NCBI GenBank assembly: GCA_964016885.1
Contig: OZ024752.1
Span: 14,508,001 to 14,572,000, forward strand
Length of the DNA: 64,000 nucleotides
Direction: 5' to 3'
Origin: Eledone cirrhosa
Taxonomy: Eukaryota
A program made the translations under genes and the position numbers. The notes under the pieces are model-generated. The model did not search any database. It was not told where the DNA came from and was given only the letters and a program-made list of their open reading frames with translations. Positions 5,399 through 59,954 of the stretch are shown piece after piece; within the stretch, counting starts at the first letter, position 1, and each line of letters starts with the position of its first letter.

Positions 5399-5742
5399 GA
5401 AAGTTATATTTACAATTGTTGGGTTACAACTAGTAAATATTTATAACTGATATAAAAGCACTCGACAAATATTTGGAGTATATTTACAATATTAAATAAA
5501 TGGAAACTATATTTATAAAACCATATTTATTTCATTATATATATTTCGGGGATATCATATTAACAATATGCTATGCCTTCCTCAGACAAAATACAATATA
5601 AACAGTTTTATAGATAAATATATTCGACATACCTTAATAACACCGACTTGCATTTGGAGAGGTTAAAACAGGCAGTGAAAAAATTTTACACAGAGAGAAA
5701 GAGAGATTATTTTTCAAAGCTAAATTATTTTTTTTCAAAGCT

Positions 5743-6357
5743 AAATTATTTTTCAAAGCTCTTGATAATCGCTTCCCTAGAACACATAGGTATCACTCTA
5801 TTTTCAATAGGCATACAATTAAATTAACCTACTCATCCACCAAAAATTTAGCACAAAATATTAATAGAATAAATAATAGGAACTTAAAACCTAGTGATAA
5901 TAGCATAAATAATATACAAGTTAACAAATGTAACTGTAGAGATAGATCTAAATGTCCGTTAAATAACAACTGCTTAGTTAAAAATATAGTATACAATTGT
6001 AATGTTAATACTGACTCTAATTCTTTTAACTACGTCGGTTCCACATCGACGGAATTTAAACTTCGCTATAATAACCACAAGAATTCTTTCACAGATCCAA
6101 GTAAAAAATTTTCAACGGCACTATCAGGCGTACTCTGGCAACTTAAGCTAGATAACGTTAGATATTCGACGGCTTGGAATATAGTCTCAAGAGGGATTCC
6201 TTTTAATTCATCCTCTGAGACATGTGACCTCTGCGCAGAGGAGATATTCTTTATACTAAAATCTAAAAATTCCCTTAATCTACGGACAAATTTATTCAGT
6301 TGTTGCAAACATAGATTAAACTCAACGTTTAAATATAAATTTAAATTTAAAATGTAG
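5743..6357 (+). pseudogene. PLE linker + GIY-YIG endonuclease fragment
   Basis: Open frame without ATG: CNCRDRSKCPLNNNCLVKNIVYNC..YVGSTSTEFKLRYNNHK..CDLCAEE..SCCKH..*. It is homologous to the C-terminal part of the ORF at 62047-63999. Confidence 0.88.
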
Positions 6358-7754
6358 TATATTTAGTTTGATTTATGTTTATATGGGAAACTAGCCGATA
6401 CATTTTTGATTCCTTAAATTTTTGATTCCTTCTTTTTATTCTTTTTTTATTGTTTATTTATTTTTATTTTATTTTTATTTAAACATTCCTCATGAAAAAT
6501 TAAGCTACCCTAAAAGCTGATGCTCCAAATATTTTGAATAAACCTTACACTAGATAAACTTCTATATTAAATATAAGAACACATGTAGACCAATTCGGAC
6601 ATCATAAACTTTTTGAAATGATCTTTGCTAGATGTGATTTGATAGATAATTTTTTAACTTTGTCTTATAATGAACTTGGCAATATATTGTCAATTAATTT
6701 TGAAGGGTTGATCTTTGTGGTTTATTTTTATTTTTATTTTTTATTTATTTTTTATTATTGTAGTATTTTATAATATTTTTTAATATCTTTAATATGTAAA
6801 AAAATTTTAATACGTAATATATTTTTTAATATGTAATATTTTTAATATGTAATATTCTTTCGTAATTATTTTTTAGTTTTCTATTTTATTATTACTTATT
6901 ATTATTATTATTGTTATCTTTTTATTTTTTTAGTTTTGCTTTCTGATATATATTTTTTATTAGTATATTGAAATCTGCTCTCTATTTCTGCTTGATAGAT
7001 AATCTTGTAGAGTAAAGACAGGAATAATAATACACATATATGTATACTCAAATTTTTATACCACATTTTTTATACCACATTGAGAATGTTTTCTGTGAAC
7101 TTGGAGTTTGCAGAGTTGATCATGTGGATATTTGTAGATATCACATAAACATATGAATTTTTTTAAAAAACTAAACATAAGATAATTAATTTTCACACAC
7201 TATGGATACTTGTCTCATTCAGGAATACTGATATTTACAATATAGTGGAAGTTTTATAAATACTAATACATTAAAACATAGGGTTTTTACGCCTCGATTA
7301 TATCTGGCTATTTTTAAATTTTTTCTCTCGCTATTTTTTCTCTCTCTATATTTTTTTCTCTCTATATATATCTCCCTTACATTAATACTTGAGCTAAATA
7401 AATAAATAAATAAATAAATGTATCATTGATACATTTACTGAACTGACCTCCCATTACCTAATTTTCTATATATTATGTATCTATCTCTATTTCCTCTCTC
7501 TCTCTATATATATATATATCTCTTTCTGTTTCTTTACATGAAGTTCTTCTCTCTATCTATCTTTCCATCTCTCTATTTTGTTCCATGCATTTCTTCTTTT
7601 TCTTCCTTTTCTTCGTTTTCTGTCTTTCTTTCTTTTTTCTCTCTCTCTTTCTCTCTGTGTAAAATTTTTTCACTGCCTGTTTTAACCTCTCCAAATGCAA
7701 GTCGGTGTTATTAAGGTATGTCGAATATATTTATCTATAAAACTGTTTATATTG

Positions 7755-7820
7755 TATTTTGTCTGAGGAAGTCATAGCATATTGTTAATATGATATCCCC
7801 GAAATATATATAATGAAATA
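7755..7820 (+). ncRNA. Type I hammerhead ribozyme in PLE 3' pLTR (inverted copy at 5528-5593, minus strand)
   Basis: tattttgt CTGAGGA [stem II with catatt/aatatg] GAAA tatata TA atgaaata. Stem I has 8 bp including G-U pairs; stem III is palindromic. Confidence 0.72.
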
Positions 7821-7886
7821 AATATGGTTTTATAAATATAGTTTCCATTTATTTAATATTGTATATATATATATATATATATATGA

Positions 7887-15584: not shown

Positions 15585-15586
15585 CT

Positions 15587-18577: not shown

Positions 18578-20540
<1,963 letters not shown>

Positions 20541-23500
20541 ATAAAAACAAATAACGAAACGAAATTAAATTTCGTTTCGTTTGTAACTCACTTTTGTATG
20601 ACTGGCGCTTAAACAATTAAGTTAAAAATGTACATCCACATATGTATACTGAAATACTAGTATGCATATGAATACACACACGTGTACATATGTAGATGTA
20701 CCGAGTTTTCACTGGTCACTTTACTGTGAGTGTCCAGCTATTCCGTATGTAGACACACAGACAAACCGGTTCTTAGAGTCATACTGGTTTTTGAGGAAAC
20801 ACCTTTCCTCTATTCTCCAGAAAGCCAGACAAGGAATATTGGACTAGTTTCGATGTTGTTACATCTCATCAGCAATATTTACCTATCTTCCGGCTTCTCT
20901 AGAGAATCGTGAAAGCACATATCGTTATATGCTTTTTCTATGAAAATTAGTAGTGGGCAGACCAATTTGCATAGAGCGTGAGTACGTACCGGTTCAACGG
21001 AGACGATAAAAACAAATAACGAAACGAAATTAAATTTCGTTTCGTTTGTAACTCACTTTTGTATGACTGGCGCTTAAACAATTAAGTTAAAAATGTACAT
21101 CCACATATGTATACTGAAATACTAGTATGCATATGAATACACACACGTGTACATATGTAGATGTACCGAGTTTTCACTGGTCACTTTACTGTGAGTGTCC
21201 AGCTATTCCGTATGTAGACACACAGACAAACCGGTTCTTAGAGTCATACTGGTTTTTGAGGAAACACCTTTCCTCTATTCTCCAGAAAGCCAGACAAGGA
21301 ATATTGGACTAGTTTCGATGTTGTTACATCTCATCAGCAATATTTACCTATCTTCCGGCTTCTCTAGAGAATCGTGAAAGCACATATCGTTATATGCTTT
21401 TTCTATGAAAATTAGTAGTGGGCAGACCAATTTGCATAGAGCGTGAGTACGTACCGGTTCAACGGAGACGATAAAAACAAATAACGAAACGAAATTAAAT
21501 TTCGTTTTGTTTGTAACTCACTTTTGTATGACTGGCGCTTAAACAATTAAGTTAAAAATGTACATCCACATATGTATACTGAAATACTAGTATGCATATG
21601 AATACACACACGTGTACATATGTAGATGTACCGAGTTTTCACTGGTCACTTTACTGTGAGTGTCCAGCTATTCCGTATGTAGACACACAGACAAACCGGT
21701 TCTTAGAGTCATACTGGTTTTTGAGGAAACACCTTTCCTCTATTCTCCAGAAAGCCAGACAAGGAATATTGGACTAGTTTCGATGTTGTTACATCTCATC
21801 AGCAATATTTACCTATCTTCCGGCTTCTCTAGAGAATCGTGAAAGCACATATCGTTATATGCTTTTTCTATGAAAATTAGTAGTGGGCAGACCAATTTGC
21901 ATAGAGCGTGAGTACGTACCGGTTCAACGGAGACGATAAAAACAAATAACGAAACGAAATTAAATTTCGTTTCGTTTGTAACTCACTTTTGTATGACTGG
22001 CGCTTAAACAATTAAGTTAAAAATGTACATCCACATATGTATACTGAAATACTAGTATGCATATGAATACACACACGTGTACATATGTAGATGTACCGAG
22101 TTTTCACTGGTCACTTTACTGTGAGTGTCCAGCTATTCCGTATGTAGACACACAGACAAACCGGTTCTTAGAGTCATACTGGTTTTTGAGGAAACACCTT
22201 TCCTCTATTCTCCAGAAAGCCAGACAAGGAATATTGGACTAGTTTCGATGTTGTTACATCTCATCAGCAATATTTACCTATCTTCCGGCTTCTCTAGAGA
22301 ATCGTGAAAGCACATATCGTTATATGCTTTTTCTATGAAAATTAGTAGTGGGCAGACCAATTTGCATAGAGCGTGAGTACGTACCGGTTCAACGGAGACG
22401 ATAAAAACAAATAACGAAACGAAATTAAATTTCGTTTAGTTTGTAACTCACTTTTGTATGACTGGCGCTTAAACAATTAAGTTAAAAATGTACATCCACA
22501 TATGTATACTGAAATACTAGTATGCATATGAATACACACACGTGTACATATGTAGATGTACCGAGTTTTCACTGGTCACTTTACTGTGAGTGTCCAGCTA
22601 TTCCGTATGTAGACACACAGACAAACCGGTTCTTAGAGTCATACTGGTTTTTGAGGAAACACCTTTCCTCTATTCTCCAGAAAGCCAGACAAGGAATATT
22701 GGACTAGTTTCGATGTTGTTACATCTCATCAGCAATATTTACCTATCTTCCGGCTTCTCTAGAGAATCGTGAAAGCACATATCGTTATATGCTTTTTCTA
22801 TGAAAATTAGTAGTGGGCAGACCAATTTGCATAGAGCGTGAGTACGTACCGGTTCAACGGAGACGATAAAAACAAATAACGAAACGAAATTAAATTTCGT
22901 TTCGTTTGTAACTCACTTTTGTATGACTGGCGCTTAAACAATTAAGTTAAAAATGTACATCCACATATGTATACTGAAATACTAGTATGCATATGAATAC
23001 ACACACGTGTACATATGTAGATGTACCGAGTTTTCACTGGTCACTTTACTGTGAGTGTCCAGCTATTCCGTATGTAGACACACAGACAAACCGGTTCTTA
23101 GAGTCATACTGGTTTTTGAGGAAACACCTTTCCTCTATTCTCCAGAAAGCCAGACAAGGAATATTGGACTAGTTTCGATGTTGTTACATCTCATCAGCAA
23201 TATTTACCTATCTTCCGGCTTCTCTAGAGAATCGTGAAAGCACATATCGTTATATGCTTTTTCTATGAAAATTAGTAGTGGGCAGACCAATTTGCATAGA
23301 GCGTGAGTACGTACCGGTTCAACGGAGACGATAAAAACAAATAACGAAACGAAATTAAATTTCGTTTCGTTTGTAACTCACTTTTGTATGACTGGCGCTT
23401 AAACAATTAAGTTAAAAATGTACATCCACATATGTATACTGAAATACTAGTATGCATATGAATACACACACGTGTACATATGTAGATGTACCGAGTTTTC

Positions 23501-26500
23501 ACTGGTCACTTTACTGTGAGTGTCCAGCTATTCCGTATGTAGACACACAGACAAACCGGTTCTTAGAGTCATACTGGTTTTTGAGGAAACACCTTTCCTC
23601 TATTCTCCAGAAAGCCAGACAAGGAATATTGGACTAGTTTCGATGTTGTTACATCTCATCAGCAATATTTACCTATCTTCCGGCTTCTCTAGAGAATCGT
23701 GAAAGCACATATCGTTATATGCTTTTTCTATGAAAATTAGTAGTGGGCAGACCAATTTGCATAGAGCGTGAGTACGTACCGGTTCAACGGAGACGATAAA
23801 AACAAATAACGAAACGAAATTAAATTTCGTTTCGTTTGTAACTCACTTTTGTATGACTGGCGCTTAAACAATTAAGTTAAAAATGTACATCCACATATGT
23901 ATACTGAAATACTAGTATGCATATGAATACACACACGTGTACATATGTAGATGTACCGAGTTTTCACTGGTCACTTTACTGTGAGTGTCCAGCTATTCCG
24001 TATGTAGACACACAGACAAACCGGTTCTTAGAGTCATACTGGTTTTTGAGGAAACACCTTTCCTCTATTCTCCAGAAAGCCAGACAAGGAATATTGGACT
24101 AGTTTCGATGTTGTTACATCTCATCAGCAATATTTACCTATCTTCCGGCTTCTCTAGAGAATCGTGAAAGCACATATCGTTATATGCTTTTTCTATGAAA
24201 ATTAGTAGTGGGCAGACCAATTTGCATAGAGCGTGAGTACGTACCGGTTCAACGGAGACGATAAAAACAAATAACGAAACGAAATTAAATTTCGTTTCGT
24301 TTGTAACTCACTTTTGTATGACTGGCGCTTAAACAATTAAGTTAAAAATGTACATCCACATATGTATACTGAAATACTAGTATGCATATGAATACACACA
24401 CGTGTACATATGTAGATGTACCGAGTTTTCACTGGTCACTTTACTGTGAGTGTCCAGCTATTCCGTATGTAGACACACAGACAAACCGGTTCTTAGAGTC
24501 ATACTGGTTTTTGAGGAAACACCTTTCCTCTATTCTCCAGAAAGCCAGACAAGGAATATTGGACTAGTTTCGATGTTGTTACATCTCATCAGCAATATTT
24601 ACCTATCTTCCGGCTTCTCTAGAGAATCGTGAAAGCACATATCGTTATATGCTTTTTCTATGAAAATTAGTAGTGGGCAGACCAATTTGCATAGAGCGTG
24701 AGTACGTACCGGTTCAACGGAGACGATAAAAACAAATAACGAAACGAAATTAAATTTCGTTTCGTTTGTAACTCACTTTTGTATGACTGGCGCTTAAACA
24801 ATTAAGTTAAAAATGTACATCCACATATGTATACTGAAATACTAGTATGCATATGAATACACACACGTGTACATATGTAGATGTACCGAGTTTTCACTGG
24901 TCACTTTACTGTGAGTGTCCAGCTATTCCGTATGTAGACACACAGACAAACCGGTTCTTAGAGTCATACTGGTTTTTGAGGAAACACCTTTCCTCTATTC
25001 TCCAGAAAGCCAGACAAGGAATATTGGACTAGTTTCGATGTTGTTACATCTCATCAGCAATATTTACCTATCTTCCGGCTTCTCTAGAGAATCGTGAAAG
25101 CACATATCGTTATATGCTTTTTCTATGAAAATTAGTAGTGGGCAGACCAATTTGCATAGAGCGTGAGTACGTACCGGTTCAACGGAGACGATAAAAACAA
25201 ATAACGAAACGAAATTAAATTTCGTTTCGTTTGTAACTCACTTTTGTATGACTGGCGCTTAAACAATTAAGTTAAAAATGTACATCCACATATGTATACT
25301 GAAATACTAGTATGCATATGAATACACACACGTGTACATATGTAGATGTACCGAGTTTTCACTGGTCACTTTACTGTGAGTGTCCAGCTATTCCGTATGT
25401 AGACACACAGACAAACCGGTTCTTAGAGTCATACTGGTTTTTGAGGAAACACCTTTCCTCTATTCTCCAGAAAGCCAGACAAGGAATATTGGACTAGTTT
25501 CGATGTTGTTACATCTCATCAGCAATATTTACCTATCTTCCGGCTTCTCTAGAGAATCGTGAAAGCACATATCGTTATATGCTTTTTCTATGAAAATTAG
25601 TAGTGGGCAGACCAATTTGCATAGAGCGTGAGTACGTACCGGTTCAACGGAGATGATAAAAACAAATAACGAAACGAAATTAAATTTCGTTTCGTTTGTA
25701 ACTCACTTTTGTATGACTGGCGCTTAAACAATTAAGTTAAAAATGTACATCCACATATGTATACTGAAATACTAGTATGCATATGAATACACACACGTGT
25801 ACATATGTAGATGTACCGAGTTTTCACTGGTCACTTTACTGTGAGTGTCCAGCTATTCCGTATGTAGACACACAGACAAACCGGTTCTTAGAGTCATACT
25901 GGTTTTTGAGGAAACACCTTTCCTCTATTCTCCAGAAAGCCAGACAAGGAATATTGGACTAGTTTCGATGTTGTTACATCTCATCAGCAATATTTACCTA
26001 TCTTCCGGCTTCTCTAGAGAATCGTGAAAGCACATATCGTTATATGCTTTTTCTATGAAAATTAGTAGTGGGCAGACCAATTTGCATAGAGCGTGAGTAC
26101 GTACCGGTTCAACGGAGACGATAAAAACAAATAACGAAACGAAATTAAATTTCGTTTCGTTTGTAACTCACTTTTGTATGACTGGCGCTTAAACAATTAA
26201 GTTAAAAATGTACATCCACATATGTATACTGAAATACTAGTATGCATATGAATACACACACGTGTACATATGTAGATGTACCGAGTTTTCACTGGTCACT
26301 TTACTGTGAGTGTCCAGCTATTCCGTATGTAGACACACAGACAAACCGGTTCTTAGAGTCATACTGGTTTTTGAGGAAACACCTTTCCTCTATTCTCCAG
26401 AAAGCCAGACAAGGAATATTGGACTAGTTTCGATGTTGTTACATCTCATCAGCAATATTTACCTATCTTCCGGCTTCTCTAGAGAATCGTGAAAGCACAT

Positions 26501-29500
26501 ATCGTTATATGCTTTTTCTATGAAAATTAGTAGTGGGCAGACCAATTTGCATAGAGCGTGAGTACGTACCGGTTCAACGGAGACGATAAAAACAAATAAC
26601 GAAACGAAATTAAATTTCGTTTCGTTTGTAACTCACTTTTGTATGACTGGCGCTTAAACAATTAAGTTAAAAATGTACATCCACATATGTATACTGAAAT
26701 ACTAGTATGCATATGAATACACACACGTGTACATATGTAGATGTACCGAGTTTTCACTGGTCACTTTACTGTGAGTGTCCAGCTATTCCGTATGTAGACA
26801 CACAGACAAACCGGTTCTTAGAGTCATACTGGTTTTTGAGGAAACACCTTTCCTCTATTCTCCAGAAAGCCAGACAAGGAATATTGGACTAGTTTCGATG
26901 TTGTTACATCTCATCAGCAATATTTACCTATCTTCCGGCTTCTCTAGAGAATCGTGAAAGCACATATCGTTATATGCTTTTTCTATGAAAATTAGTAGTG
27001 GGCAGACCAATTTGCATAGAGCGTGAGTACGTACCGGTTCAACGGAGACGATAAAAACAAATAACGAAACGAAATTAAATTTCGTTTCGTTTGTAACTCA
27101 CTTTTGTATGACTGGCGCTTAAACAATTAAGTTAAAAATGTACATCCACATATGTATACTGAAATACTAGTATGCATATGAATACACACACGTGTACATA
27201 TGTAGATGTACCGAGTTTTCACTGGTCACTTTACTGTGAGTGTCCAGCTATTCCGTATGTAGACACACAGACAAACCGGTTCTTAGAGTCATACTGGTTT
27301 TTGAGGAAACACCTTTCCACTATTCTCCAGAAAGCCAGACAAGGAATATTGGACTAGTTTCGATGTTGTTACATCTCATCAGCAATATTTACCTATCTTC
27401 CGGCTTCTCTAGAGAATCGTGAAAGCACATATCGTTATATGCTTTTTCTATGAAAATTAGTAGTGGGCAGACCAATTTGCATAGAGCGTGAGTACGTACC
27501 GGTTCAACGGAGACGATAAAAACAAATAACGAAACGAAATTAAATTTCGTTTCGTTTGTAACTCACTTTTGTATGACTGGCGCTTAAACAATTAAGTTAA
27601 AAATGTACATCCACATATGTATACTGAAATACTAGTATGCATATGAATACACACACGTGTACATATGTAGATGTACCGAGTTTTCACTGGTCACTTTACT
27701 GTGAGTGTCCAGCTATTCCGTATGTAGACACACAGACAAACCGGTTCTTAGAGTCATACTGGTTTTTGAGGAAACACCTTTCCTCTATTCTCCAGAAAGC
27801 CAGACAAGGAATATTGGACTAGTTTCGATGTTGTTACATCTCATCAGCAATATTTACCTATCTTCCGGCTTCTCTAGAGAATCGTGAAAGCACATATCGT
27901 TATATGCTTTTTCTATGAAAATTAGTAGTGGGCAGACCAATTTGCATAGAGCGTGAGTACGTACCGGTTCAACGGAGACGATAAAAACAAATAACGAAAC
28001 GAAATTAAATTTCGTTTCGTTTGTAACTCACTTTTGTATGACTGGCGCTTAAACAATTAAGTTAAAAATGTACATCCACATATGTATACTGAAATACTAG
28101 TATGCATATGAATACACACACGTGTACATATGTAGATGTACCGAGTTTTCACTGGTCACTTTACTGTGAGTGTCCAGCTATTCCGTATGTAGACACACAG
28201 ACAAACCGGTTCTTAGAGTCATACTGGTTTTTGAGGAAACACCTTTCCTCTATTCTCCAGAAAGCCAGACAAGGAATATTGGACTAGTTTCGATGTTGTT
28301 ACATCTCATCAGCAATATTTACCTATCTTCCGGCTTCTCTAGAGAATCGTGAAAGCACATATCGTTATATGCTTTTTCTATGAAAATTAGTAGTGGGCAG
28401 ACCAATTTGCATAGAGCGTGAGTACGTACCGGTTCAACGGAGACGATAAAAACAAATAACGAAACGAAATTAAATTTCGTTTCGTTTGTAACTCACTTTT
28501 GTATGACTGGCGCTTAAACAATTAAGTTAAAAATGTACATCCACATATGTATACTGAAATACTAGTATGCATATGAATACACACACGTGTACATATGTAG
28601 ATGTACCGAGTTTTCACTGGTCACTTTACTGTGAGTGTCCAGCTATTCCGTATGTAGACACACAGACAAACCGGTTCTTAGAGTCATACTGGTTTTTGAG
28701 GAAACACCTTTCCTCTATTCTCCAGAAAGCCAGACAAGGAATATTGGACTAGTTTCGATGTTGTTACATCTCATCAGCAATATTTACCTATCTTCCGGCT
28801 TCTCTAGAGAATCGTGAAAGCACATATCGTTATATGCTTTTTCTATGAAAATTAGTAGTGGGCAGACCAATTTGCATAGAGCGTGAGTACGTACCGGTTC
28901 AACGGAGACGATAAAAACAAATAACGAAACGAAATTAAATTTCGTTTCGTTTGTAACTCACTTTTGTATGACTGGCGCTTAAACAATTAAGTTAAAAATG
29001 TACATCCACATATGTATACTGAAATACTAGTATGCATATGAATACACACACGTGTACATATGTAGATGTACCGAGTTTTCACTGGTCACTTTACTGTGAG
29101 TGTCCAGCTATTCCGTATGTAGACACACAGACAAACCGGTTCTTAGAGTCATACTGGTTTTTGAGGAAACACCTTTCCTCTATTGTCAAAGCCAGACAAG
29201 GAATATTTGACTAGTTTCGATGTTGTTACATCTCATCAGCAATATTTACCTATCTTCCGGCTTCTCTAGAGAATCGTGAAAGCACATATCGTTATATGCT
29301 TTTTCTATGAAAATTAGTAGTGGGCAGACCAATTTGCATAGAGCGTGAGTACGTACCGGTTCAACGGAGACGATAAAAACAAATAACGAAACGAAATTAA
29401 ATTTCGTTTCGTTTGTAACTCACTTTTGTATGACTGGCGCTTAAACAATTAAGTTAAAAATGTACATCCACATATGTATACTGAAATACTAGTATGCTAT

Positions 29501-32500
29501 GAATACACACACGTGTACATATGTAGATGTACCGAGTTTTCACTGGTCACTTTACTGTGAGTGTCCAGCTATTCCGTATGTAGACACACAGACAAACCGG
29601 TTCTTAGAGTCATACTGGTTTTTGAGGAAACACCTTTCCTCTATTCTCCAGAAAGCCAGACAAGGAATATTGGACTAGTTTCGATGTTGTTACATCTCAT
29701 CAGCAATATTTACCTATCTTCCGGCTTCTCTAGAGAATCGTGAAAGCACATATCGTTATATGCTTTTTCTATGAAAATTAGTAGTGGGCAGACCAATTTG
29801 CATAGAGCGTGAGTACGTACCGGTTCAACGGAGACGATAAAAACAAATAACGAAACGAAATTAAATTTCGTTTCGTTTGTAACTCACTTTTGTATGACTG
29901 GCGCTTAAACAATTAAGTTAAAAATGTACATCCACATATGTATACTGAAATACTAGTATGCATATGAATACACACACGTGTACATATGTAGATGTACCGA
30001 GTTTTCACTGGTCACTTTACTGTGAGTGTCCAGCTATTCCGTATGTAGACACACAGACAAACCGGTTCTTAGAGTCATACTGGTTTTTGAGGAAACACCT
30101 TTCCTCTATTCTCCAGAAAGCCAGACAAGGAATATTGGACTAGTTTCGATGTTGTTACATCTCATCAGCAATATTTACCTATCTTCCGGCTTCTCTAGAG
30201 AATCGTGAAAGCACATATCGTTATATGCTTTTTCTATGAAAATTAGTAGTGGGCAGACCAATTTGCATAGAGCGTGAGTACGTACCGGTTCAACGGAGAC
30301 GATAAAAACAAATAACGAAACGAAATTAAATTTCGTTTCGTTTGTAACTCACTTTTGTATGACTGGCGCTTAAACAATTAAGTTAAAAATGTACATCCAC
30401 ATATGTATACTGAAATACTAGTATGCATATGAATACACACACGTGTACATATGTAGATGTACCGAGTTTTCACTGGTCACTTTACTGTGAGTGTCCAGCT
30501 ATTCCGTATGTAGACACACAGACAAACCGGTTCTTAGAGTCATACTGGTTTTTGAGGAAACACCTTTCCTCTATTCTCCAGAAAGCCAGACAAGGAATAT
30601 TGGACTAGTTTCGATGTTGTTACATCTCATCAGCAATATTTACCTATCTTCCGGCTTCTCTAGAGAATCGTGAAAGCACATATCGTTATATGCTTTTTCT
30701 ATGAAAATTAGTAGTGGGCAGACCAATTTGCATAGAGCGTGAGTACGTACCGGTTCAACGGAGATGATAAAAACAAATAACGAAACGAAATTAAATTTCG
30801 TTTCGTTTGTAACTCACTTTTGTATGACTGGCGCTTAAACAATTAAGTTAAAAATGTACATCCACATATGTATACTGAAATACTAGTATGCATATGAATA
30901 CACACACGTGTACATATGTAGATGTACCGAGTTTTCACTGGTCACTTTACTGTGAGTGTCCAGCTATTCCGTATGTAGACACACAGACAAACCGGTTCTT
31001 AGAGTCATACTGGTTTTTGAGGAAACACCTTTCCTCTATTCTCCAGAAAGCCAGACAAGGAATATTGGACTAGTTTCGATGTTGTTACATCTCATCAGCA
31101 ATATTTACCTATCTTCCGGCTTCTCTAGAGAATCGTGAAAGCACATATCGTTATATGCTTTTTCTATGAAAATTAGTAGTGGGCAGACCAATTTGCATAG
31201 AGCGTGAGTACGTACCGGTTCAACGGAGACGATAAAAACAAATAACGAAACGAAATTAAATTTCGTTTCGTTTGTAACTCACTTTTGTATGACTGGCGCT
31301 TAAACAATTAAGTTAAAAATGTACATCCACATATGTATACTGAAATACTAGTATGCATATGAATACACACACGTGTACATATGTAGATGTACCGAGTTTT
31401 CACTGGTCACTTTACTGTGAGTGTCCAGCTATTCCGTATGTAGACACACAGACAAACCGGTTCTTAGAGTCATACTGGTTTTTGAGGAAACACCTTTCCT
31501 CTATTCTCCAGAAAGCCAGACAAGGAATATTGGACTAGTTTCGATGTTGTTACATCTCATCAGCAATATTTACCTATCTTCCGGCTTCTCTAGAGAATCG
31601 TGAAAGCACATATCGTTATATGCTTTTTCTATGAAAATTAGTAGTGGGCAGACCAATTTGCATAGAGCGTGAGTACGTACCGGTTCAACGGAGACGATAA
31701 AAACAAATAACGAAACGAAATTAAATTTCGTTTCGTTTGTAACTCACTTTTGTATGACTGGCGCTTAAACAATTAAGTTAAAAATGTACATCCACATATG
31801 TATACTGAAATACTAGTATGCATATGAATACACACACGTGTACATATGTAGATGTACCGAGTTTTCACTGGTCACTTTACTGTGAGTGTCCAGCTATTCC
31901 GTATGTAGACACACAGACAAACCGGTTCTTAGAGTCATACTGGTTTTTGAGGAAACACCTTTCCTCTATTCTCCAGAAAGCCAGACAAGGAATATTGGAC
32001 TAGTTTCGATGTTGTTACATCTCATCAGCAATATTTACCTATCTTCCGGCTTCTCTAGAGAATCGTGAAAGCACATATCGTTATATGCTTTTTCTATGAA
32101 AATTAGTAGTGGGCAGACCAATTTGCATAGAGCGTGAGTACGTACCGGTTCAACGGAGACGATAAAAACAAATAACGAAACGAAATTAAATTTCGTTTCG
32201 TTTGTAACTCACTTTTGTATGACTGGCGCTTAAACAATTAAGTTAAAAATGTACATCCACATATGTATACTGAAATACTAGTATGCATATGAATACACAC
32301 ACGTGTACATATGTAGATGTACCGAGTTTCCACTGGTCACTTTACTGTGAGTGTCCAGCTATTCCGTATGTAGACACACAGACAAACCGGTTCTTAGAGT
32401 CATACTGGTTTTTGAGGAAACACCTTTCCACTATTCTCCAGAAAGCCAGACAAGGAATATTGGACTAGTTTCGATGTTGTTACATCTCATCAGCAATATT

Positions 32501-35500
32501 TACCTATCTTCCGGCTTCTCTAGAGAATCGTGAAAGCACATATCGTTATATGCTTTTTCTATGAAAATTAGTAGTGGGCAGACCAATTTGCATAGAGCGT
32601 GAGTACGTACCGGTTCAACGGAGACGATAAAAACAAATAACGAAACGAAATTAAATTTCGTTTCGTTTGTAACTCACTTTTGTATGACTGGCGCTTAAAC
32701 AATTAAGTTAAAAATGTACATCCACATATGTATACTGAAATACTAGTATGCATATGAATACACACACGTGTACATATGTAGATGTACCGAGTTTTCACTG
32801 GTCACTTTACTGTGAGTGTCCAGCTATTCCGTATGTAGACACACAGACAAACCGGTTCTTAGAGTCATACTGGTTTTTGAGGAAACACCTTTCCTCTATT
32901 CTCCAGAAAGCCAGACAAGGAATATTGGACTAGTTTCGATGTTGTTACATCTCATCAGCAATATTTACCTATCTTCCGGCTTCTCTAGAGAATCGTGAAA
33001 GCACATATCGTTATATGCTTTTTCTATGAAAATTAGTAGTGGGCAGACCAATTTGCATAGAGCGTGAGTACGTACCGGTTCAACGGAGACGATAAAAACA
33101 AATAACGAAACGAAATTAAATTTCGTTTCGTTTGTAACTCACTTTTGTATGACTGGCGCTTAAACAATTAAGTTAAAAATGTACATCCACATATGTATAC
33201 TGAAATACTAGTATGCATATGAATACACACACGTGTACATATGTAGATGTACCGAGTTTTCACTGGTCACTTTACTGTGAGTGTCCAGCTATTCCGTATG
33301 TAGACACACAGACAAACCGGTTCTTAGAGTCATACTGGTTTTTGAGGAAACACCTTTCCTCTATTCTCCAGAAAGCCAGACAAGGAATATTGGACTAGTT
33401 TCGATGTTGTTACATCTCATCAGCAATATTTACCTATCTTCCGGCTTCTCTAGAGAATCGTGAAAGCACATATCGTTATATGCTTTTTCTATGAAAATTA
33501 GTAGTGGGCAGACCAATTTGCATAGAGCGTGAGTACGTACCGGTTCAACGGAGACGATAAAAACAAATAACGAAACGAAATTAAATTTCGTTTCGTTTGT
33601 AACTCACTTTTGTATGACTGGCGCTTAAACAATTAAGTTAAAAATGTACATCCACATATGTATACTGAAATACTAGTATGCATATGAATACACACACGTG
33701 TACATATGTAGATGTACCGAGTTTTCACTGGTCACTTTACTGTGAGTGTCCAGCTATTCCGTATGTAGACACACAGACAAACCGGTTCTTAGAGTCATAC
33801 TGGTTTTTGAGGAAACACCTTTCCTCTATTCTCCAGAAAGCCAGACAAGGAATATTGGACTAGTTTCGATGTTGTTACATCTCATCAGCAATATTTACCT
33901 ATCTTCCGGCTTCTCTAGAGAATCGTGAAAGCACATATCGTTATATGCTTTTTCTATGAAAATTAGTAGTGGGCAGACCAATTTGCATAGAGCGTGAGTA
34001 CGTACCGGTTCAACGGAGACGATAAAAACAAATAACGAAACGAAATTAAATTTCGTTTCGTTTGTAACTCACTTTTGTATGACTGGCGCTTAAACAATTA
34101 AGTTAAAAATGTACATCCACATATGTATACTGAAATACTAGTATGCATATGAATACACACACGTGTACATATGTAGATGTACCGAGTTTTCACTGGTCAC
34201 TTTACTGTGAGTGTCCAGCTATTCCGTATGTAGACACACAGACAAACCGGTTCTTAGAGTCATACTGGTTTTTGAGGAAACACCTTTCCTCTATTCTCCA
34301 GAAAGCCAGACAAGGAATATTGGACTAGTTTCGATGTTGTTACATCTCATCAGCAATATTTACCTATCTTCCGGCTTCTCTAGAGAATCGTGAAAGCACA
34401 TATCGTTATATGCTTTTTCTATGAAAATTAGTAGTGGGCAGACCAATTTGCATAGAGCGTGAGTACGTACCGGTTCAACGGAGACGATAAAAACAAATAA
34501 CGAAACGAAATTAAATTTCGTTTCGTTTGTAACTCACTTTTGTATGACTGGCGCTTAAACAATTAAGTTAAAAATGTACATCCACATATGTATACTGAAA
34601 TACTAGTATGCATATGAATACACACACGTGTACATATGTAGATGTACCGAGTTTTCACTGGTCACTTTACTGTGAGTGTCCAGCTATTCCGTATGTAGAC
34701 ACACAGACAAACCGGTTCTTAGAGTCATACTGGTTTTTGAGGAAACACCTTTCCTCTATTCTCCAGAAAGCCAGACAAGGAATATTGGACTAGTTTCGAT
34801 GTTGTTACATCTCATCAGCAATATTTACCTATCTTCCGGCTTCTCTAGAGAATCGTGAAAGCACATATCGTTATATGCTTTTTCTATGAAAATTAGTAGT
34901 GGGCAGACCAATTTGCATAGAGCGTGAGTACGTACCGGTTCAACGGAGACGATAAAAACAAATAACGAAACGAAATTAAATTTCGTTTCGTTTGTAACTC
35001 ACTTTTGTATGACTGGCGCTTAAACAATTAAGTTAAAAATGTACATCCACATATGTATACTGAAATACTAGTATGCATATGAATACACACACGTGTACAT
35101 ATGTAGATGTACCGAGTTTTCACTGGTCACTTTACTGTGAGTGTCCAGCTATTCCGTATGTAGACACACAGACAAACCGGTTCTTAGAGTCATACTGGTT
35201 TTTGAGGAAACACCTTTCCTCTATTCTCCAGAAAGCCAGACAAGGAATATTGGACTAGTTTCGATGTTGTTACATCTCATCAGCAATATTTACCTATCTT
35301 CCGGCTTCTCTAGAGAATCGTGAAAGCACATATCGTTATATGCTTTTTCTATGAAAATTAGTAGTGGGCAGACCAATTTGCATAGAGCGTGAGTACGTAC
35401 CGGTTCAACGGAGACGATAAAAACAAATAACGAAACGAAATTAAATTTCGTTTCGTTTGTAACTCACTTTTGTATGACTGGCGCTTAAACAATTAAGTTA

Positions 35501-38500
35501 AAAATGTACATCCACATATGTATACTGAAATACTAGTATGCATATGAATACACACACGTGTACATATGTAGATGTACCGAGTTTTCACTGGTCACTTTAC
35601 TGTGAGTGTCCAGCTATTCCGTATGTAGACACACAGACAAACCGGTTCTTAGAGTCATACTGGTTTTTGAGGAAACACCTTTCCACTATTCTCCAGAAAG
35701 CCAGACAAGGAATATTGGACTAGTTTCGATGTTGTTACATCTCATCAGCAATATTTACCTATCTTCCGGCTTCTCTAGAGAATCGTGAAAGCACATATCG
35801 TTATATGCTTTTTCTATGAAAATTAGTAGTGGGCAGACCAATTTGCATAGAGCGTGAGTACGTACCGGTTCAACGGAGACGATAAAAACAAATAACGAAA
35901 CGAAATTAAATTTCGTTTCGTTTGTAACTCACTTTTGTATGACTGGCGCTTAAACAATTAAGTTAAAAATGTACATCCACATATGTATACTGAAATACTA
36001 GTATGCATATGAATACACACACGTGTACATATGTAGATGTACCGAGTTTTCACTGGTCACTTTACTGTGAGTGTCCAGCTATTCCGTATGTAGACACACA
36101 GACAAACCGGTTCTTAGAGTCATACTGGTTTTTGAGGAAACACCTTTCCTCTATTCTCCAGAAAGCCAGACAAGGAATATTGGACTAGTTTCGATGTTGT
36201 TACATCTCATCAGCAATATTTACCTATCTTCCGGCTTCTCTAGAGAATCGTGAAAGCACATATCGTTATATGCTTTTTCTATGAAAATTAGTAGTGGGCA
36301 GACCAATTTGCATAGAGCGTGAGTACGTACCGGTTCAACGGAGACGATAAAAACAAATAACGAAACGAAATTAAATTTCGTTTCGTTTGTAACTCACTTT
36401 TGTATGACTGGCGCTTAAACAATTAAGTTAAAAATGTACATCCACATATGTATACTGAAATACTAGTATGCATATGAATACACACACGTGTACATATGTA
36501 GATGTACCGAGTTTTCACTGGTCACTTTACTGTGAGTGTCCAGCTATTCCGTATGTAGACACACAGACAAACCGGTTCTTAGAGTCATACTGGTTTTTGA
36601 GGAAACACCTTTCCTCTATTCTCCAGAAAGCCAGACAAGGAATATTGGACTAGTTTCGATGTTGTTACATCTCATCAGCAATATTTACCTATCTTCCGGC
36701 TTCTCTAGAGAATCGTGAAAGCACATATCGTTATATGCTTTTTCTATGAAAATTAGTAGTGGGCAGACCAATTTGCATAGAGCGTGAGTACGTACCGGTT
36801 CAACGGAGACGATAAAAACAAATAACGAAACGAAATTAAATTTCGTTTCGTTTGTAACTCACTTTTGTATGACTGGCGCTTAAACAATTAAGTTAAAAAT
36901 GTACATCCACATATGTATACTGAAATACTAGTATGCATATGAATACACACACGTGTACATATGTAGATGTACCGAGTTTTCACTGGTCACTTTACTGTGA
37001 GTGTCCAGCTATTCCGTATGTAGACACACAGACAAACCGGTTCTTAGAGTCATACTGGTTTTTGAGGAAACACCTTTCCTCTATTCTCCAGAAAGCCAGA
37101 CAAGGAATATTGGACTAGTTTCGATGTTGTTACATCTCATCAGCAATATTTACCTATCTTCCGGCTTCTCTAGAGAATCGTGAAAGCACATATCGTTATA
37201 TGCTTTTTCTATGAAAATTAGTAGTGGGCAGACCAATTTGCATAGAGCGTGAGTACGTACCGGTTCAACGGAGACGATAAAAACAAATAACGAAACGAAA
37301 TTAAATTTCGTTTCGTTTGTAACTCACTTTTGTATGACTGGCGCTTAAACAATTAAGTTAAAAATGTACATCCACATATGTATACTGAAATACTAGTATG
37401 CATATGAATACACACACGTGTACATATGTAGATGTACCGAGTTTTCACTGGTCACTTTACTGTGAGTGTCCAGCTATTCCGTATGTAGACACACAGACAA
37501 ACCGGTTCTTAGAGTCATACTGGTTTTTGAGGAAACACCTTTCCTCTATTCTCCAGAAAGCCAGACAAGGAATATTGGACTAGTTTCGATGTTGTTACAT
37601 CTCATCAGCAATATTTACCTATCTTCCGGCTTCTCTAGAGAATCGTGAAAGCACATATCGTTATATGCTTTTTCTATGAAAATTAGTAGTGGGCAGACCA
37701 ATTTGCATAGAGCGTGAGTACGTACCGGTTCAACGGAGACGATAAAAACAAATAACGAAACGAAATTAAATTTCGTTTCGTTTGTAACTCACTTTTGTAT
37801 GACTGGCGCTTAAACAATTAAGTTAAAAATGTACATCCACATATGTATACTGAAATACTAGTATGCTATGAATACACACACGTGTACATATGTAGATGTA
37901 CCGAGTTTTCACTGGTCACTTTACTGTGAGTGTCCAGCTATTCCGTATGTAGACACACAGACAAACCGGTTCTTAGAGTCATACTGGTTTTTGAGGAAAC
38001 ACCTTTCCTCTATTCTCCAGAAAGCCAGACAAGGAATATTGGACTAGTTTCGATGTTGTTACATCTCATCAGCAATATTTACCTATCTTCCGGCTTCTCT
38101 AGAGAATCGTGAAAGCACATATCGTTATATGCTTTTTCTATGAAAATTAGTAGTGGGCAGACCAATTTGCATAGAGCGTGAGTACGTACCGGTTCAACGG
38201 AGACGATAAAAACAAATAACGAAACGAAATTAAATTTCGTTTCGTTTGTAACTCACTTTTGTATGACTGGCGCTTAAACAATTAAGTTAAAAATGTACAT
38301 CCACATATGTATACTGAAATACTAGTATGCATATGAATACACACACGTGTACATATGTAGATGTACCGAGTTTTCACTGGTCACTTTACTGTGAGTGTCC
38401 AGCTATTCCGTATGTAGACACACAGACAAACCGGTTCTTAGAGTCATACTGGTTTTTGAGGAAACACCTTTCCTCTATTCTCCAGAAAGCCAGACAAGGA

Positions 38501-38751
38501 ATATTGGACTAGTTTCGATGTTGTTACATCTCATCAGCAATATTTACCTATCTTCCGGCTTCTCTAGAGAATCGTGAAAGCACATATCGTTATATGCTTT
38601 TTCTATGAAAATTAGTAGTGGGCAGACCAATTTGCATAGAGCGTGAGTACGTACCGGTTCAACGGAGACGATAAAAACAAATAACGAAACGAAATTAAAT
38701 TTCGTTTCGTTTGTAACTCACTTTTGTATGACTGGCGCTTAAACAATTAAG
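20541..38751 (-). repeat. Tandem array of 39 full 465-bp monomers plus a partial one, each with a hammerhead ribozyme core (retrozyme-like satellite)
   Basis: Monomer 20541-21005 recurs every 465 bp (for example ORF-track starts 20662, 21127, ... 38327). Copies are near-identical. The HHR is on the minus strand. Confidence 0.97.
20835..20879 (-). ncRNA. Type I hammerhead ribozyme of monomer 1 (repeated every 465 bp)
   Basis: Minus strand: aatattg CTGATGA gatgt-aaca-acatc GAAA ctag TC caatatt. All core nucleotides are canonical, stem I has 7 bp, stem II has 5 bp, and the cleavage site is GUC. Confidence 0.93.
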
Positions 38752-39709
38752 TTAATTGTTTAAGCGCCAGTCATTAATTGTTTAAGCGCCAGTCATACAA
38801 AAGTGAGTTACAAACGAAACGAAATTTAATTTCGTTTCGTTATTTGTTTTTATCGTCTCCGTTGAACCGGTACGTACTCACGCTCTATGCAAATTGGTCT
38901 GCCCACTACTAATTTTCATAGAAAAAGCATATAACGATATGTGCTTTCACGATTCTCTAGAGAAGCCGGAAGATAGGTAAATATTGCTGATGAGATGTAA
39001 CAACATCGAAACTAGTCCAATATTCCTTGTCTGGCTTTCTGGAGAATAGAGGAAAGGTGTTTCCTCAAAAACGAGTATGACTCTAAGAACCGGTTTGTCT
39101 GTGTGTCTACATACGGAATAGCTGGACACTCACAGTAAAGTGACCAGTGAAAACTCGGTACATCTACATATGTACACGTGTGTGTATTCATATGCATACT
39201 AGTATTTCAGTATACATATGTGGATGTACATTTTTAACTTAATTGTTTAAGCGCCAGTCATACAAAAGTGAGTTACAAACGAAACGAAATTTAATTTCGT
39301 TTCGTTATTTGTTTTTATCGTCTCCGTTGAACCGGTACGTACTCACGCTCTATGCAAATTGGTCTGCCCACTACTAATTTTCATAGAAAAAGCATATAAC
39401 GATATGTGCTTTCACGATTCTCTAGAGAAGCCGGAAGATAGGTAAATATTGCTGATGAGATGTAACAACATCGAAACTAGTCCAATATTCCTTGTCTGGC
39501 TTTCTGGAGAATAGAGGAAAGGTGTTTCCTCAAAAACCAGTATGACTCTAAGAACCGGTTTGTCTGTGTGTCTACATACGGAATAGCTGGACACTCACAG
39601 TAAAGTGACCAGTGAAAACTCGGTACATCTACATATGTACACGTGTGTGTATTCATATGCATACTAGTATTTCAGTATACATATGTGGATGTACATTTTT
39701 AACTTAATT
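38752..39709 (+). repeat. Inverted arm of the 465-bp array (two monomers; HHRs at 38980-39024 and 39445-39489)
   Basis: Reverse complement of the monomer, with a 22-bp tandem duplication at the fold-back junction. Confidence 0.95.
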
Positions 39710-40757
<1,048 letters not shown>

Positions 40758-41086
40758 AATATTATAATGAAATGACAGGAGGCTGGATTTGTGTAAATCC
40801 TTGAAAGGTTTATTATACTATGATCATTTCAATGACCGGGTTCCGTATGAATCCGGTGATATCATCAGGTATTCGAAATATAATATGTGAATGTAATAGA
40901 TAAAATCCATGGGGCTGAAAATCGAGGACCCGAGGGCGACCGCTATTCTGTTCCTTCAACCTCAGCCGGTCGCCCTGGATGATATCACCGGATTCATACG
41001 GAACCCGGTCATTGAAATGATCATAGTATAATAAACCTTTCAAGGATTTACACAAATCCAGCCTCCTGTCATTTCATTATAATATT
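40758..41086. repeat. Inverted repeat (40758-40866 / 40978-41086), pLTR-like, with an HHR at 40815-40872 on the minus strand
   Basis: Perfect 109-bp arms. Minus strand: atac CTGATGA [accgg..ccggt stem II] GAAA tgatca TA gtat. Confidence 0.85.
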
Positions 41087-49792: not shown

Positions 49793-50165
49793 GTCGTCTT
49801 TGCTGACAGCTCTGCCGCTGGAACTTTTAAGAGTGAACGATCCAAAGCTCTCTTCAGAGCCACCAAATTTAAATTATTACCATCGGATTCATCTTTGCTG
49901 GCAGCACCGCCGCTGAGATATTTCAAATTGAACGTTAAAAGTTCCTCTTCAGGGCCACCGGCTATAAACTGTTATCGCTGAATTCGTCTTAGCTGGCAGC
50001 ACCGCCGCTGAGACTTTTAATAGTGAACGATCCAAAGCTGTCTTTAGGGCCACCAACTTTAAATTGTTACCATTGGATTCGTCTTTGCTGGCAGAACCGC
50101 CGCAGATATATTTCAAATTGAGCGTTTAAAAGCCCTCTTTAGGACCAACACCTATAAATTGTTAC
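49793..50165 (+). repeat. ~80-100-bp subterminal tandem repeats of the Helitron
   Basis: Recurrent tctttgctggcagcaccgccgctgaga...gggccacc; also present at ~15370-15584. Confidence 0.75.
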
Positions 50166-57833: not shown

Positions 57834-57888
<55 letters not shown>

Positions 57889-57890
<2 letters not shown>

Positions 57891-58080: not shown

Positions 58081-58145
<65 letters not shown>

Positions 58146-58570
58146 TAAGGAACATATGTTAAAATTTAATGGTAAAACATATGCCCAAGAGGAAGGAGCA
58201 TCCATTGGTGTTAGCATTGCAGGCGACATAGCTAACTTATTTATGGTATGGTGGGACAGTAGACTTAAACAAAAACTTAAAGAACAATTAGAAGACAGCT
58301 TAACCCTGATAATGTACTCCCGCTACGTAGATGATATAAACATTGTAGTTAAGACACCCCCACTAAAGAACAGTCAGGAACTAGAGAAAAACACAATGGA
58401 AAGCATCCAGCAAATAGCAAACTCCATCCACCAGAGCATTAGAGTTACTAGTTGCTATAGACTACCCAAGTAGACACCCCAACCATCGATTACCTGTACT
58501 AGACACAGAGCTCTGGTTAGATACCATTAACAACGAAAAACAAATCCTCCATTCCCATTATACCAAACCC

Positions 58571-59461
58571 ATGACTTCCAAACATCTGATCCACCGAAAC
58601 TCGGCCATTTCGGACCATACCAAAATCAACATACTGATTGCGGATTTGGTACGGGTGATGAGAAATGTGTCCCGTATGTGCAACCCCGAAGAACTAGAGA
58701 GCCACATACAACACTTCATCCACGGTATGCAGTTCTCTGGCTACAATCAGAGAGATAGAATCAGAGTGTATAAAGGAGCCAGAACCAAATGGGAAAAAAT
58801 GGTAAATACTGACATAAATGGGACCTGCCCCTTGTATAGGAGCAAATTTTGGAATAGAATAGAAAGAACTAGGAACAAGGCCAATAGAATAAACTCATGG
58901 TACGATAGCAATAAATACCAGAGTGTAATGTTCATCAATACAACCCCTAGAGGCGAACTAGCCTACAAATTTAGAAGGGCCCTAAATAAACATAAACTCA
59001 ATATTAAGATAGTAGAAAGACCAGGTACCTCGGTAAAAACACTTATTAGCAAGACATACCCGTTCCAAAGACCCTCATGTATAGATAAGAAATGTATAAC
59101 CTGTAAAATAAGCCCCCATATTAACTGTAAAACTAGAAATATAGTGTATATAATAAGATGTACTGAAGGACAATGTAGAAACAAAAATATAGTGTACATA
59201 GGTGAGACAGCTCGTAGTATAGGGGAACGAATAAATGAACACTGGCGAGACCTTCAAGATAATAAAGAATCATCTGTGCTCTACCAACATGCTGAGATAG
59301 AACACAGGGGTAGATTAGAGAACATAGAAATAAAAATAGAATCCACACACACAAAAGATGCAATGTTTAGGCAAATTACAGAGGCAGTAAGCATAAAAGA
59401 ATTACAACCAAAATTAAATACAAAATATGAGAGGAACAACAACATCACAACTTACAATTAA
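58571..59461 (+). pseudogene. PLE thumb/linker + GIY-YIG endonuclease (296-aa open segment)
   Basis: ORF track; IVY..YIGET..ER..EH GIY-YIG signature. Confidence 0.88.
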
Positions 59462-59687
59462 GGACAAAATGAAAACACACACAGGACAAAATGAAAACAC
59501 ACACACACATAGAACAAACAACCACCCAACAATAAATAAATAAATAAATAAACAAATAGATAAATGAACACAAACACACACAGACACCCGGATGTGGCGC
59601 ATGCGCAAACTGAGCACACAACACACAGAAACAAAATGGCGTAGGATAGAAGAAAGGAAAGGCACAGAAACAAAGAAAGGAATCCCC

Positions 59688-59732
59688 AGTCACTGAAGAG
59701 GTCACAGACTGTGTGACGAAAGAACTATGACT
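59688..59732 (+). ncRNA. Minimal type I hammerhead ribozyme in PLE 3' pLTR
   Basis: agtca CTGAAGA g-gtcac-agactgt-gtgac GAAA gaac TA tgact. Confidence 0.8.
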
Positions 59733-59954
59733 ATATATAAACAACTATCTGGTTGTGGAACCAACCAACCAACCAGAAATTTATAAATTTGTAGATTTGT
59801 AAATTTATAACTTTATAAATATATAATAAATTGAAGTGAATGTATCTGGTGCGTGTGTTTCTTATTGGCAACATGACACTCCCAAAGTATAACAATATCG
59901 GTTTCAACACACGATTTCAGATAAAGAATCTTGCTAAACAAATTCAGAAACGAA

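What the first reader, a model, noticed from the sequence alone, without database searches (positions are those of the whole stretch)
38725..38800. Fold-back junction with a 22-bp duplication: PLE-type inversion signature in the array
Seen: the array flips at ...aaacaattaa-g-ttaattgttt..., and ttaattgtttaagcgccagtca is tandemly duplicated (38752-38773, 38774-38795). Both arms start, in HHR sense, at the same ttaatt. The right arm is exactly two monomers plus 6 nt, and both 3' ends point outward into TA tracts. The PLE at 5485-7863 shows the same geometry, including a short triplication (attatttttcaaagct) at its inversion junction, 5706-5760. Inference: the array was seeded by PLE RT/GIY-YIG machinery copying a circular or multimeric RNA.
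Basis: partly seen in the sequence, partly recalled or inferred. Interest (0 to 1): 0.72.

Follow-up and report, generated by a model that had tools for sequence, protein, structure and literature searches.

The report
Two-armed retrozyme with Penelope ends
This is the inner seam of one of over 2,000 insertions of a 465-base repeat carrying a hammerhead-ribozyme motif; the seam is an ordinary joining scar, but the two outer ends of such back-to-back insertions sit at two fixed, different sites, likely because both ends of cut host DNA copied one small, probably circular, RNA with a Penelope-type enzyme.

Summary
The array is one insertion of a 465-bp type I hammerhead retrozyme family with at least 2,085 TA-flanked ends. 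The fold-back and shared start phase are not the signature: inner junction phases are near random, and this exact fold-back occurs 3 times genome-wide. The 22-bp duplication is an 18-nt templated insert plus a 4-nt TTAA microhomology, a common scar here. The signature is at the outer ends. Of 100 consecutive ends at unit position 80 (site A), 77 pair head-to-head with an arm ending at 3-12 (site B), and none with a second A end. Penelope-like element (PLE) copies in this genome follow the same one-tail rule (8 of 8 pairs). Both arms share one haplotype; at 9 loci neither arm contains the other; at one locus a private A>G cluster is in all 4 units on both arms. Best reading: twin target-primed reverse transcription from one, probably circular, RNA by a PLE enzyme. 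No partner PLE was identified, and no raw reads cover this junction. The scan noted this layout before in other retrozyme families of this genome.

The parts
18589..20540 (.). Left half of the (TA)n/CATC compound microsatellite, the target tract
   Evidence: TRF; TACATCTA 19 vs TAGATGTA 0 in 19740-20540
20541..38755 (-). Left arm: 39 units of 465 bp plus 80 nt; outer (RNA 3') end at unit position 80 = site A; inner end at position 461
38747..38755 (.). TTAA-G-TTAA quasi-palindrome native to the unit boundary; supplies the 4-nt microhomology or snap-back seed
   Evidence: same site used at L251 and L252
38756..38773 (+). 18-nt templated junction insert; with the shared TTAA it forms the 22-bp duplication
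38774..39709 (+). Right arm: 2 units + 6 nt; outer end at unit position 6 = site B
38969..39040 (+). Type I hammerhead motif (CUGAUGA...GAAA...GUC; predicted cut after unit position 244); one per unit, second copy at 39434-39505
   Evidence: Rfam HH9 38.9 bits, E 3.9e-8, below the gathering score of 52; core read from sequence; cleavage not tested
39245..39318 (+). Segment between sites B and A (the 'tail', 69-77 nt) with a 13-15-bp hairpin at unit positions 40-68, shown for the second right-arm unit
39710..40766 (.). Right half of the same compound TA tract, in the same orientation as the left half
   Evidence: TACATCTA 29 vs TAGATGTA 1
5399..5706 (-). Comparator PLE-A, inverted arm: 222-nt terminal repeat 5485-5706 plus tail of about 87 nt at 5399-5484
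5707..5739 (+). Comparator PLE-A junction insert: two extra imperfect copies of the first bases of the truncated body
   Evidence: 19 of 19 other copies lack it
5740..7863 (+). Comparator PLE-A body: 5'-truncated, GIY-YIG-type C-terminus, tail-less 3' end in TA
58141..59954 (+). Second comparator, PLE-B, 5'-truncated; the family has two 3' ends about 59 nt apart

Best explanation
38725-38800 is the inner seam of a two-armed retrozyme insertion whose arms end outward at unit positions 80 and 6 in one TA tract, and it likely arose when both cut DNA ends primed reverse transcription, probably by a Penelope-like enzyme, on one probably circular 465-nt RNA. Steps: (1) shown: the target is a pre-existing (TA)n tract, and each outer end has 1-3 nt of T/TA overlap with it. 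(2) Shown as a pattern, inferred as enzyme behaviour: one strand starts at site A (80) and the other at site B (3-12); two A ends or two B ends were not seen in the samples. (3) Inferred: each cDNA runs round the circle for a variable distance and stops at a near-random phase. (4) Shown as scars, enzyme unknown (polymerase theta or the RT): the two cDNA 3' ends join by 1-8-nt microhomology or after abortive templated synthesis. Here the left cDNA ended in TTAAGTTAA, primed 18 nt on itself or on the other cDNA, let go and re-joined, giving the 22-bp repeat. (5) Inferred: the left arm later grew by DNA-level duplication to 39 units.
For: Pairing: 77 A+B and 0 A+A among 100 consecutive A ends on contig C1 (4 second arms end elsewhere, 16 have no second arm, 3 unresolved). 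Of 17 B ends lacking an exact-pattern A partner, 14 have an A-type second end and 0 a B end. Same one-tail rule in PLE-A, 8 of 8 inverted pairs, and in PLE-B, 3 of 3 pairs with both ends visible. Purified PLE protein nicks and extends both strands, starts at two internal sites that delimit the tail, and is modelled as a dimer (PMC11167929). Arms share a haplotype: median 0.2% within vs 3.0% between loci, 42 loci. Neither arm contains the other at 9 loci (L051, L057, L095, L096, L098, L102, L107, L230, L233). 47 of 62 A arms and 54 of 62 B arms run through the predicted cut site. A 27-nt stretch with an A>G cluster occurs only at L087, in 4 of 4 units on both arms. A>G is 13 of 38 locus-fixed changes vs 25 of 254 single-unit changes, p 2e-4. 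Junction classes, 83 of 88 parsed: 43 microhomology, 11 blunt, 9 with 1-3-nt inserts, 20 with inserts of 4 nt or more, 12 of them matching an arm end over 8 nt or more. Microhomology of 3 nt or more in 22 of 54 vs 6% by simulation.
Against: No autonomous partner found: apart from retrozyme copies lying beside them, no match between the unit and 80 PLE-A/PLE-B loci in the part of the output shown. In vitro, the anole PLE showed no difference in start site between strands, initiated without homology to the cut DNA, and used uncleaved RNA, so a linear multimer is a workable template (PMC11167929). A>G vs T>C strand bias among fixed changes is not significant (13 vs 6, p 0.17; 22 vs 12, p 0.12). 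Arm lengths are uncorrelated (rho 0.10, p 0.45), unlike the R = 0.76 reported for L1 twin priming, so lock-step copying is not supported. Gene conversion between arms could add to their identity. One TA-flanked second arm ends at 226 (L223). The A sample was chosen for an exact site-A end.
Confidence: 0.66

Rival explanations
1. Same twin priming at sites A and B by a PLE enzyme, but on an uncleaved linear multimer transcript, or on two RNAs from one source locus, not on one circle.
For: Uncleaved RNA is the main substrate of the anole PLE in vitro. Source arrays are homogeneous, so shared haplotypes follow anyway. Arm lengths are uncorrelated. No RNA-level evidence of a circle was obtained here.
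Against: The L087 A>G cluster is unique to one locus yet present in all 4 units on both arms, whereas independent editing of multimer units should differ unit by unit. 26 of 57 loci have changes fixed in all units on both arms and absent from their 6 nearest neighbours.
Confidence: 0.19
2. Fold-back self-priming: one cDNA snaps back and copies itself to make the second arm, and the endonuclease trims it at the other site (close to the self-priming model of PMC3846280 and the first reader's emphasis).
For: This junction, L251, L252 and L072 are palindromic; snap-back inserts exist (L099); the arms are near identical; palindromes at inverted junctions are reported for rotifer PLEs.
Against: At 9 loci each arm holds sequence the other lacks. 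Matching inner phases are at chance level (2 of 62 vs 2.8). The exact fold-back is 3 of more than 2,000 insertions. The window's right arm lacks the 420 deletion of its mirror unit and has its own C300G.
Confidence: 0.06
3. The RT is not a PLE's but that of a LINE or another element, using L1-like twin priming.
For: Twin priming gives the same outward geometry and microhomology joints; LINE-type RT ORFs lie in the window; no sequence link to a PLE was found.
Against: L1 twin priming uses a poly(A) end plus a spurious internal site and copies mostly non-overlapping parts of a linear RNA. Here both sites are fixed and internal, there is no poly(A), and PLEs in the same genome show the same two-end rule and TA targeting.
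Confidence: 0.06
4. The junction is a fold-back chimeric-read or assembly artefact.
For: No raw reads across this junction were available; palindromic joints are a known long-read artefact (own knowledge).
Against: The arms are not mirror copies. The right arm ends at site B as the family rule predicts and runs on into the same-orientation TA tract and unique DNA. A different haplotype has the same fold-back with its own 13-nt duplication (L251). Contigs of run X1 show 12 head-to-head joints of this family and site-A ends.
Confidence: 0.03

Closest known systems
Metazoan non-LTR retrozymes (Cervera and de la Pena 2020, PMC7229834; Li, Clavereau and Pollet 2026, bioRxiv 10.64898/2026.07.22.740005)
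   Same: Non-coding tandem units of a few hundred bp, GC under 45%, one type I hammerhead per unit, dimers to multimers; PLE mobilisation through a circle is proposed in both papers.
   Different: The text read describes no head-to-head two-armed insertions, fixed paired ends, TA targeting or junction scars ('inverted' and 'inversion' 0 hits in PMC7229834; supplements not seen). The 2026 paper favours local tandem amplification of a PLE terminus and shows pLTR homology in Xenopus; no such homology was found here.
Endonuclease-bearing Penelope-like elements with inverted pLTR and tail (PMC3846280, PMC8557442, PMC11167929)
   Same: Inverted 5'-truncated arm, tail often at only one end, AT-rich or (TA)n targets, hammerhead motif, two internal RT start sites.
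   Different: No ORF; the tail is 69-77 nt rather than 30-40; both arms are multimers of one unit. The one-tail rule is described as 'optional' or 'often' in print and is 77 to 0 here.
L1 twin priming (passages in bioRxiv 10.1101/2024.08.27.596794) and snap-back 5' junctions of R2-mediated insertion (PMC11371274)
   Same: Both DNA ends prime on one RNA; the cDNAs join by microcomplementarity; duplications and snap-back inserts occur at the joint.
   Different: The second priming site is fixed, not spurious; it is the main route (about 80% of insertions sampled); the arms overlap over many units; arm lengths are not correlated.

Membership tests
Metazoan non-LTR retrozyme | Tandem non-coding units of about 150-450+ bp, low GC, no LTR/PBS/PPT | tested here: met
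   465 bp, 37% GC, no ORF of 100 aa or more inside the array; PBS/PPT not searched
Metazoan non-LTR retrozyme | Type I hammerhead in each unit | tested here: met
   Core and stems read from sequence; HH9 E 3.9e-8 but 38.9 bits, under the gathering score of 52
Metazoan non-LTR retrozyme | Self-cleavage and accumulation as circular RNA | not testable with these tools
   No RNA holder listed; contigs cannot show a circle
Metazoan non-LTR retrozyme | Dispersed copies showing mobility | tested here: met
   2,085 site-A ends in TA; arrays on many contigs
Non-autonomous Penelope-like element | Inverted arm with 3' ends outward and tail at one end | tested here: met
   77 A+B, 0 A+A
Non-autonomous Penelope-like element | AT-rich or (TA)n target | tested here: met
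   the 20 loci were not chosen for TA flanks, and all 19 with a resolved outer end have it in or beside a TA tract, one 33-nt arm (L040) excepted
Non-autonomous Penelope-like element | Sequence shared with the pLTR or tail of an autonomous PLE | tested here: inconclusive
   None seen with the two PLE families in the window (80 loci, output cut); other PLE families of the genome not examined
Non-autonomous Penelope-like element | Target-site duplication | not testable with these tools
   The target is a TA microsatellite; no empty allele available
Autonomous PLE (the array itself) | RT plus GIY-YIG ORF | tested here: not met
   No ORF in the array
Fold-back (snap-back) palindrome as the general origin | Second arm is a mirror copy contained in the first | tested here: not met
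   9 loci where neither arm contains the other; matching phases at chance level

The most novel reading that the evidence does not exclude
A Penelope RT-endonuclease dimer binds one circular ribozyme RNA asymmetrically, places one active site at position 80 and the other about 72 nt upstream across a hairpin, and makes two rolling-circle cDNAs from the two ends of a TA break. This obligate two-site, two-strand priming would be the normal PLE integration route, would explain the inverted-pLTR and one-tail structure, and would write A-to-I edits of a single RNA circle into every unit of a new satellite.
Probability: 0.4. Interest if true: 0.82.

Novelty: new variant of a known kind. Interest (0 to 1): 0.6.

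Why it matters
How animal retrozymes get into DNA, and why PLE insertions carry an inverted arm and a one-sided tail, are open questions in the papers read. This family turns both into base-precise predictions: two start sites (unit positions 80 and 3-12), one per DNA strand, on a 465-nt non-coding RNA that fits the existing in vitro PLE assay. It also shows a route from a small catalytic RNA to a 19-kb satellite. The flagged seam alone is ordinary; the value lies in the family-wide end rule.

Tried and rejected
Shared start phase: rejected. An apparent pile-up of junctions in the unit's hairpin was a BLAST chaining artefact; base-level parsing left only a few real cases such as L101 and L242. 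Linear cut monomer read once: rejected, since most arms cross the cut site and only 3 of 62 and 2 of 62 inner ends lie at 240-250. TA tracts as RT-added tails: rejected, since the CATC interruptions face the same way on both flanks. C16 as a window-private mark: only partly, since 42 of 64 matches are in the window and the rest at other loci. A51G as private to L083: rejected, 162 matches at many loci. Lock-step copying of both arms: no length correlation. Raw-read check: no RNA holder listed; X23 and X24 laid no reads; X1 contigs lack the C16 allele and do not show this junction. X4 and X6 each hold one contig of unit length plus 30 (495 and 497 nt), which fits a circle or a tandem array equally, so it is not counted as evidence. 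Rfam at gathering threshold: 0 hits. Pfam found nothing on the PLE-A fragment. Rows dropped: L038 (indel-rich arm); L080 (duplicate of L079) but counted among the 100 ends; L042 (second end unresolved, near the contig end); 5 of 88 junctions outside -15..+40 nt.

Full report
Observation. All stated details hold: a 23-bp-arm palindrome centred on G38751, an exact 22-bp tandem repeat at 38752-38795, a right arm of 2 units + 6 nt, a left arm of 39 units + 80 nt, and TA tracts at both outer ends. Unit positions below count from 39239 (position 1 = TTAATT). The left arm continues naturally to 38755 (position 461) through a TTAA-G-TTAA quasi-palindrome present in every unit. The cleanest parse is left arm, 18-nt insert (38756-38773), right arm from 38774. 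The insert copies either the left arm's own end inverted or the right arm's start directly; the two cannot be told apart here.

The unit. It is 465 bp, folds far better than shuffles (z -10.3) and carries a type I hammerhead core; Rfam HH9 scores 38.9 bits, E 3.9e-8, under its gathering score of 52. The window is G000:C12:14508001-14572000 in a 3.0-Gb assembly. An exact pattern for a unit ending at position 80 followed by TA has 2,085 matches, with 0 for the control. A pattern for ends near position 3-15 has 462 forward matches; the reverse count is inflated by the variable gap.

Outer ends. In 20 arrays picked by sequence identity, 12 were head-to-head, and each had one arm ending at 79-80 (site A) and the other at 3-15 (site B), as the window does. 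I then fetched all of the first 100 listed site-A ends on contig C1. Of these, 77 have an inverted second arm ending at site B (63 by BLAST, 11 read by eye including micro-arms of 9-20 nt, 3 through neighbouring stretches), 0 end at site A, 4 end elsewhere (one of them TA-flanked, L223), 16 have no second arm and 3 run beyond the fetch. Two of the 77 (L079, L080) are one duplicated event. Of 17 B ends with no exact-pattern A partner, 14 have an A-type second end, none has a B end, and 3 are single or unclear. Free choice of site would give half A+A; 0 of 77 has p 7e-24. The flanks are one pre-existing tract split in two: the CATC interruptions face the same way left (19 to 0) and right (29 to 1).

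Inner junctions. Phases are near random. Both arms agree within 10 nt in 2 of 62 loci, against 2.8 expected. The window's exact fold-back occurs 3 times in the genome; L251, a diverged haplotype, has it with its own 13-nt duplication, and L252 without one. Of 88 junctions, 83 parsed: 43 microhomologies of 1-8 nt, 11 blunt, 9 inserts of 1-3 nt, and 20 inserts of 4-30 nt, 12 of which match an adjacent arm end over at least 8 nt; two or three of these 12 may be parsing artefacts. Microhomology of 3 nt or more is seen in 22 of 54 insert-free joints against 6% simulated; the many-haplotype library may inflate this a little. The 22-bp repeat is therefore a common type of joining scar. That polymerase theta makes such scars is my own knowledge; PMC11371274 (passages) describes snap-back 5' junctions for R2 insertions.

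The PLE comparison. The element at 5399-7863 is a 5'-truncated PLE: another copy shows an RT with YRDD followed by a GIY-YIG-type domain, and two of three homologues carry PF26215. A Nematis-like label for it and a Neptune-like label for the element at 58.1-60.0 kb are recalled, not tested. Its triplication is absent from 19 of 19 other copies, so it is junctional. Its left arm carries a tail of about 87 nt and its right arm none; 8 of 8 inverted pairs among 30 matches have one tailed end (one partial) and one tail-less end. The second PLE family has two ends about 59 nt apart, one of each in 3 of 3 pairs with both ends visible. The unit shows no sequence match to either family in the output shown, apart from retrozyme copies lying beside them, so the partner is unidentified.

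Template. The two arms of a locus share one haplotype (median 0.2% against 3.0% between loci, 42 loci). At 9 loci each arm holds positions the other lacks, so neither was copied from the other. Most arms pass the predicted cut site (47 and 54 of 62). A 27-nt stretch at L087 differs from L083 by five A>G changes, three of them private, and occurs 4 times in the genome, all at L087, 1 on one arm and 3 on the other. A>G makes up 13 of 38 changes fixed across both arms but 25 of 254 single-unit changes (p 2e-4); the strand bias against T>C is not significant (13 vs 6, p 0.17). This favours one monomer read repeatedly, but rests largely on one locus and does not exclude gene conversion. Arm lengths are uncorrelated (rho 0.10). 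In the window's long arm, shared variants recur at offsets of 18 and 11 units, which points to later DNA-level duplication, so the RT step seeded rather than wrote all 39 units.

Artefact check. No raw reads cover this junction: X23 and X24 laid nothing, and X1 lacks the window's C16 allele. X1 contigs do show 12 head-to-head joints of the family, five with inserted letters, and site-A ends into TA. The arms are not mirror copies, and the right arm obeys the family's end rule.

Literature. Read: bioRxiv 10.64898/2026.07.22.740005, parts 1-3 of 5 (main text; supplements closed); PMC11167929, parts 1-2 of 4; PMC7229834, passages and Discussion (supplementary figure S9 not seen); PMC3846280, PMC8557442, bioRxiv 10.1101/2024.08.27.596794 and PMC11371274, passages. 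PLE mobilisation of retrozyme circles is proposed in print; the one-sided tail and inverted arm are described for PLEs; two internal start sites are shown in vitro, with no strand difference and no homology to the cut DNA. Six searches listed no paper describing two-armed retrozyme insertions or strict pairing of the two sites; the library lacks most subscription papers, and unseen supplements may bear on this. Earlier scan notes report the same layout for 310-, 422-, 466-, 467/468- and 478-bp units in this genome; they are unchecked, some may be subfamilies of this one, and they are not counted as support.

Verdict. Observation confirmed, interpretation partly supported. The seam is an ordinary scar with a chance-level fold-back. 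The family-wide A+B rule is a clean footprint of PLE-type twin priming on a non-coding, probably circular RNA. New variant of a known kind; interest 0.6.

Noticed in passing
window 40755-41085: Near-perfect hairpin of about 330 bp (long inverted repeat with a short spacer) just beyond the right TA tract; read by eye
   Followed up: no
window 57881-58083; flank of L033: A self-complementary element of about 200 bp between TA tracts; a related sequence abuts the retrozyme arm in L033
   Followed up: no
window 14110-14856 and 45526-49296: Broken Helitron-like Rep/PIF1 helicase frames, with 95-bp tandem repeats at 15377-15585 and 49794-50165 (label recalled from motifs)
   Followed up: no
window 9253-12151: Broken LINE-type endonuclease and RT frames (label recalled from motifs)
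   Followed up: no
L049, L122, L124, L127, L210, L232, L244 flanks: Retrozyme, PLE-A and PLE-B ends often share one TA tract, which suggests common targeting
   Followed up: partly
window 7842-7863 vs unit 456-465 and 1-8: The tail-less end of PLE-A and site B of the retrozyme end in similar letters (TAATATTGT vs TAATTGT) before TA; may be chance in AT-rich DNA
   Followed up: no
L060, L062-L065, L074, L079: A subfamily about 10% diverged obeys the same A/B ends; unit length varies from about 463 to 469 bp between subfamilies
   Followed up: partly
runs X4 and X6: Single contigs of unit length plus 30 nt in other coded organisms; circle or tandem array cannot be told apart
   Followed up: partly
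L038 5452-8049: One arm is riddled with indels while the other is clean; possibly low-quality assembly
   Followed up: no
L088 1978-2031; L104: Second small or neighbouring insertions facing tail-to-tail in the same TA tract
   Followed up: no
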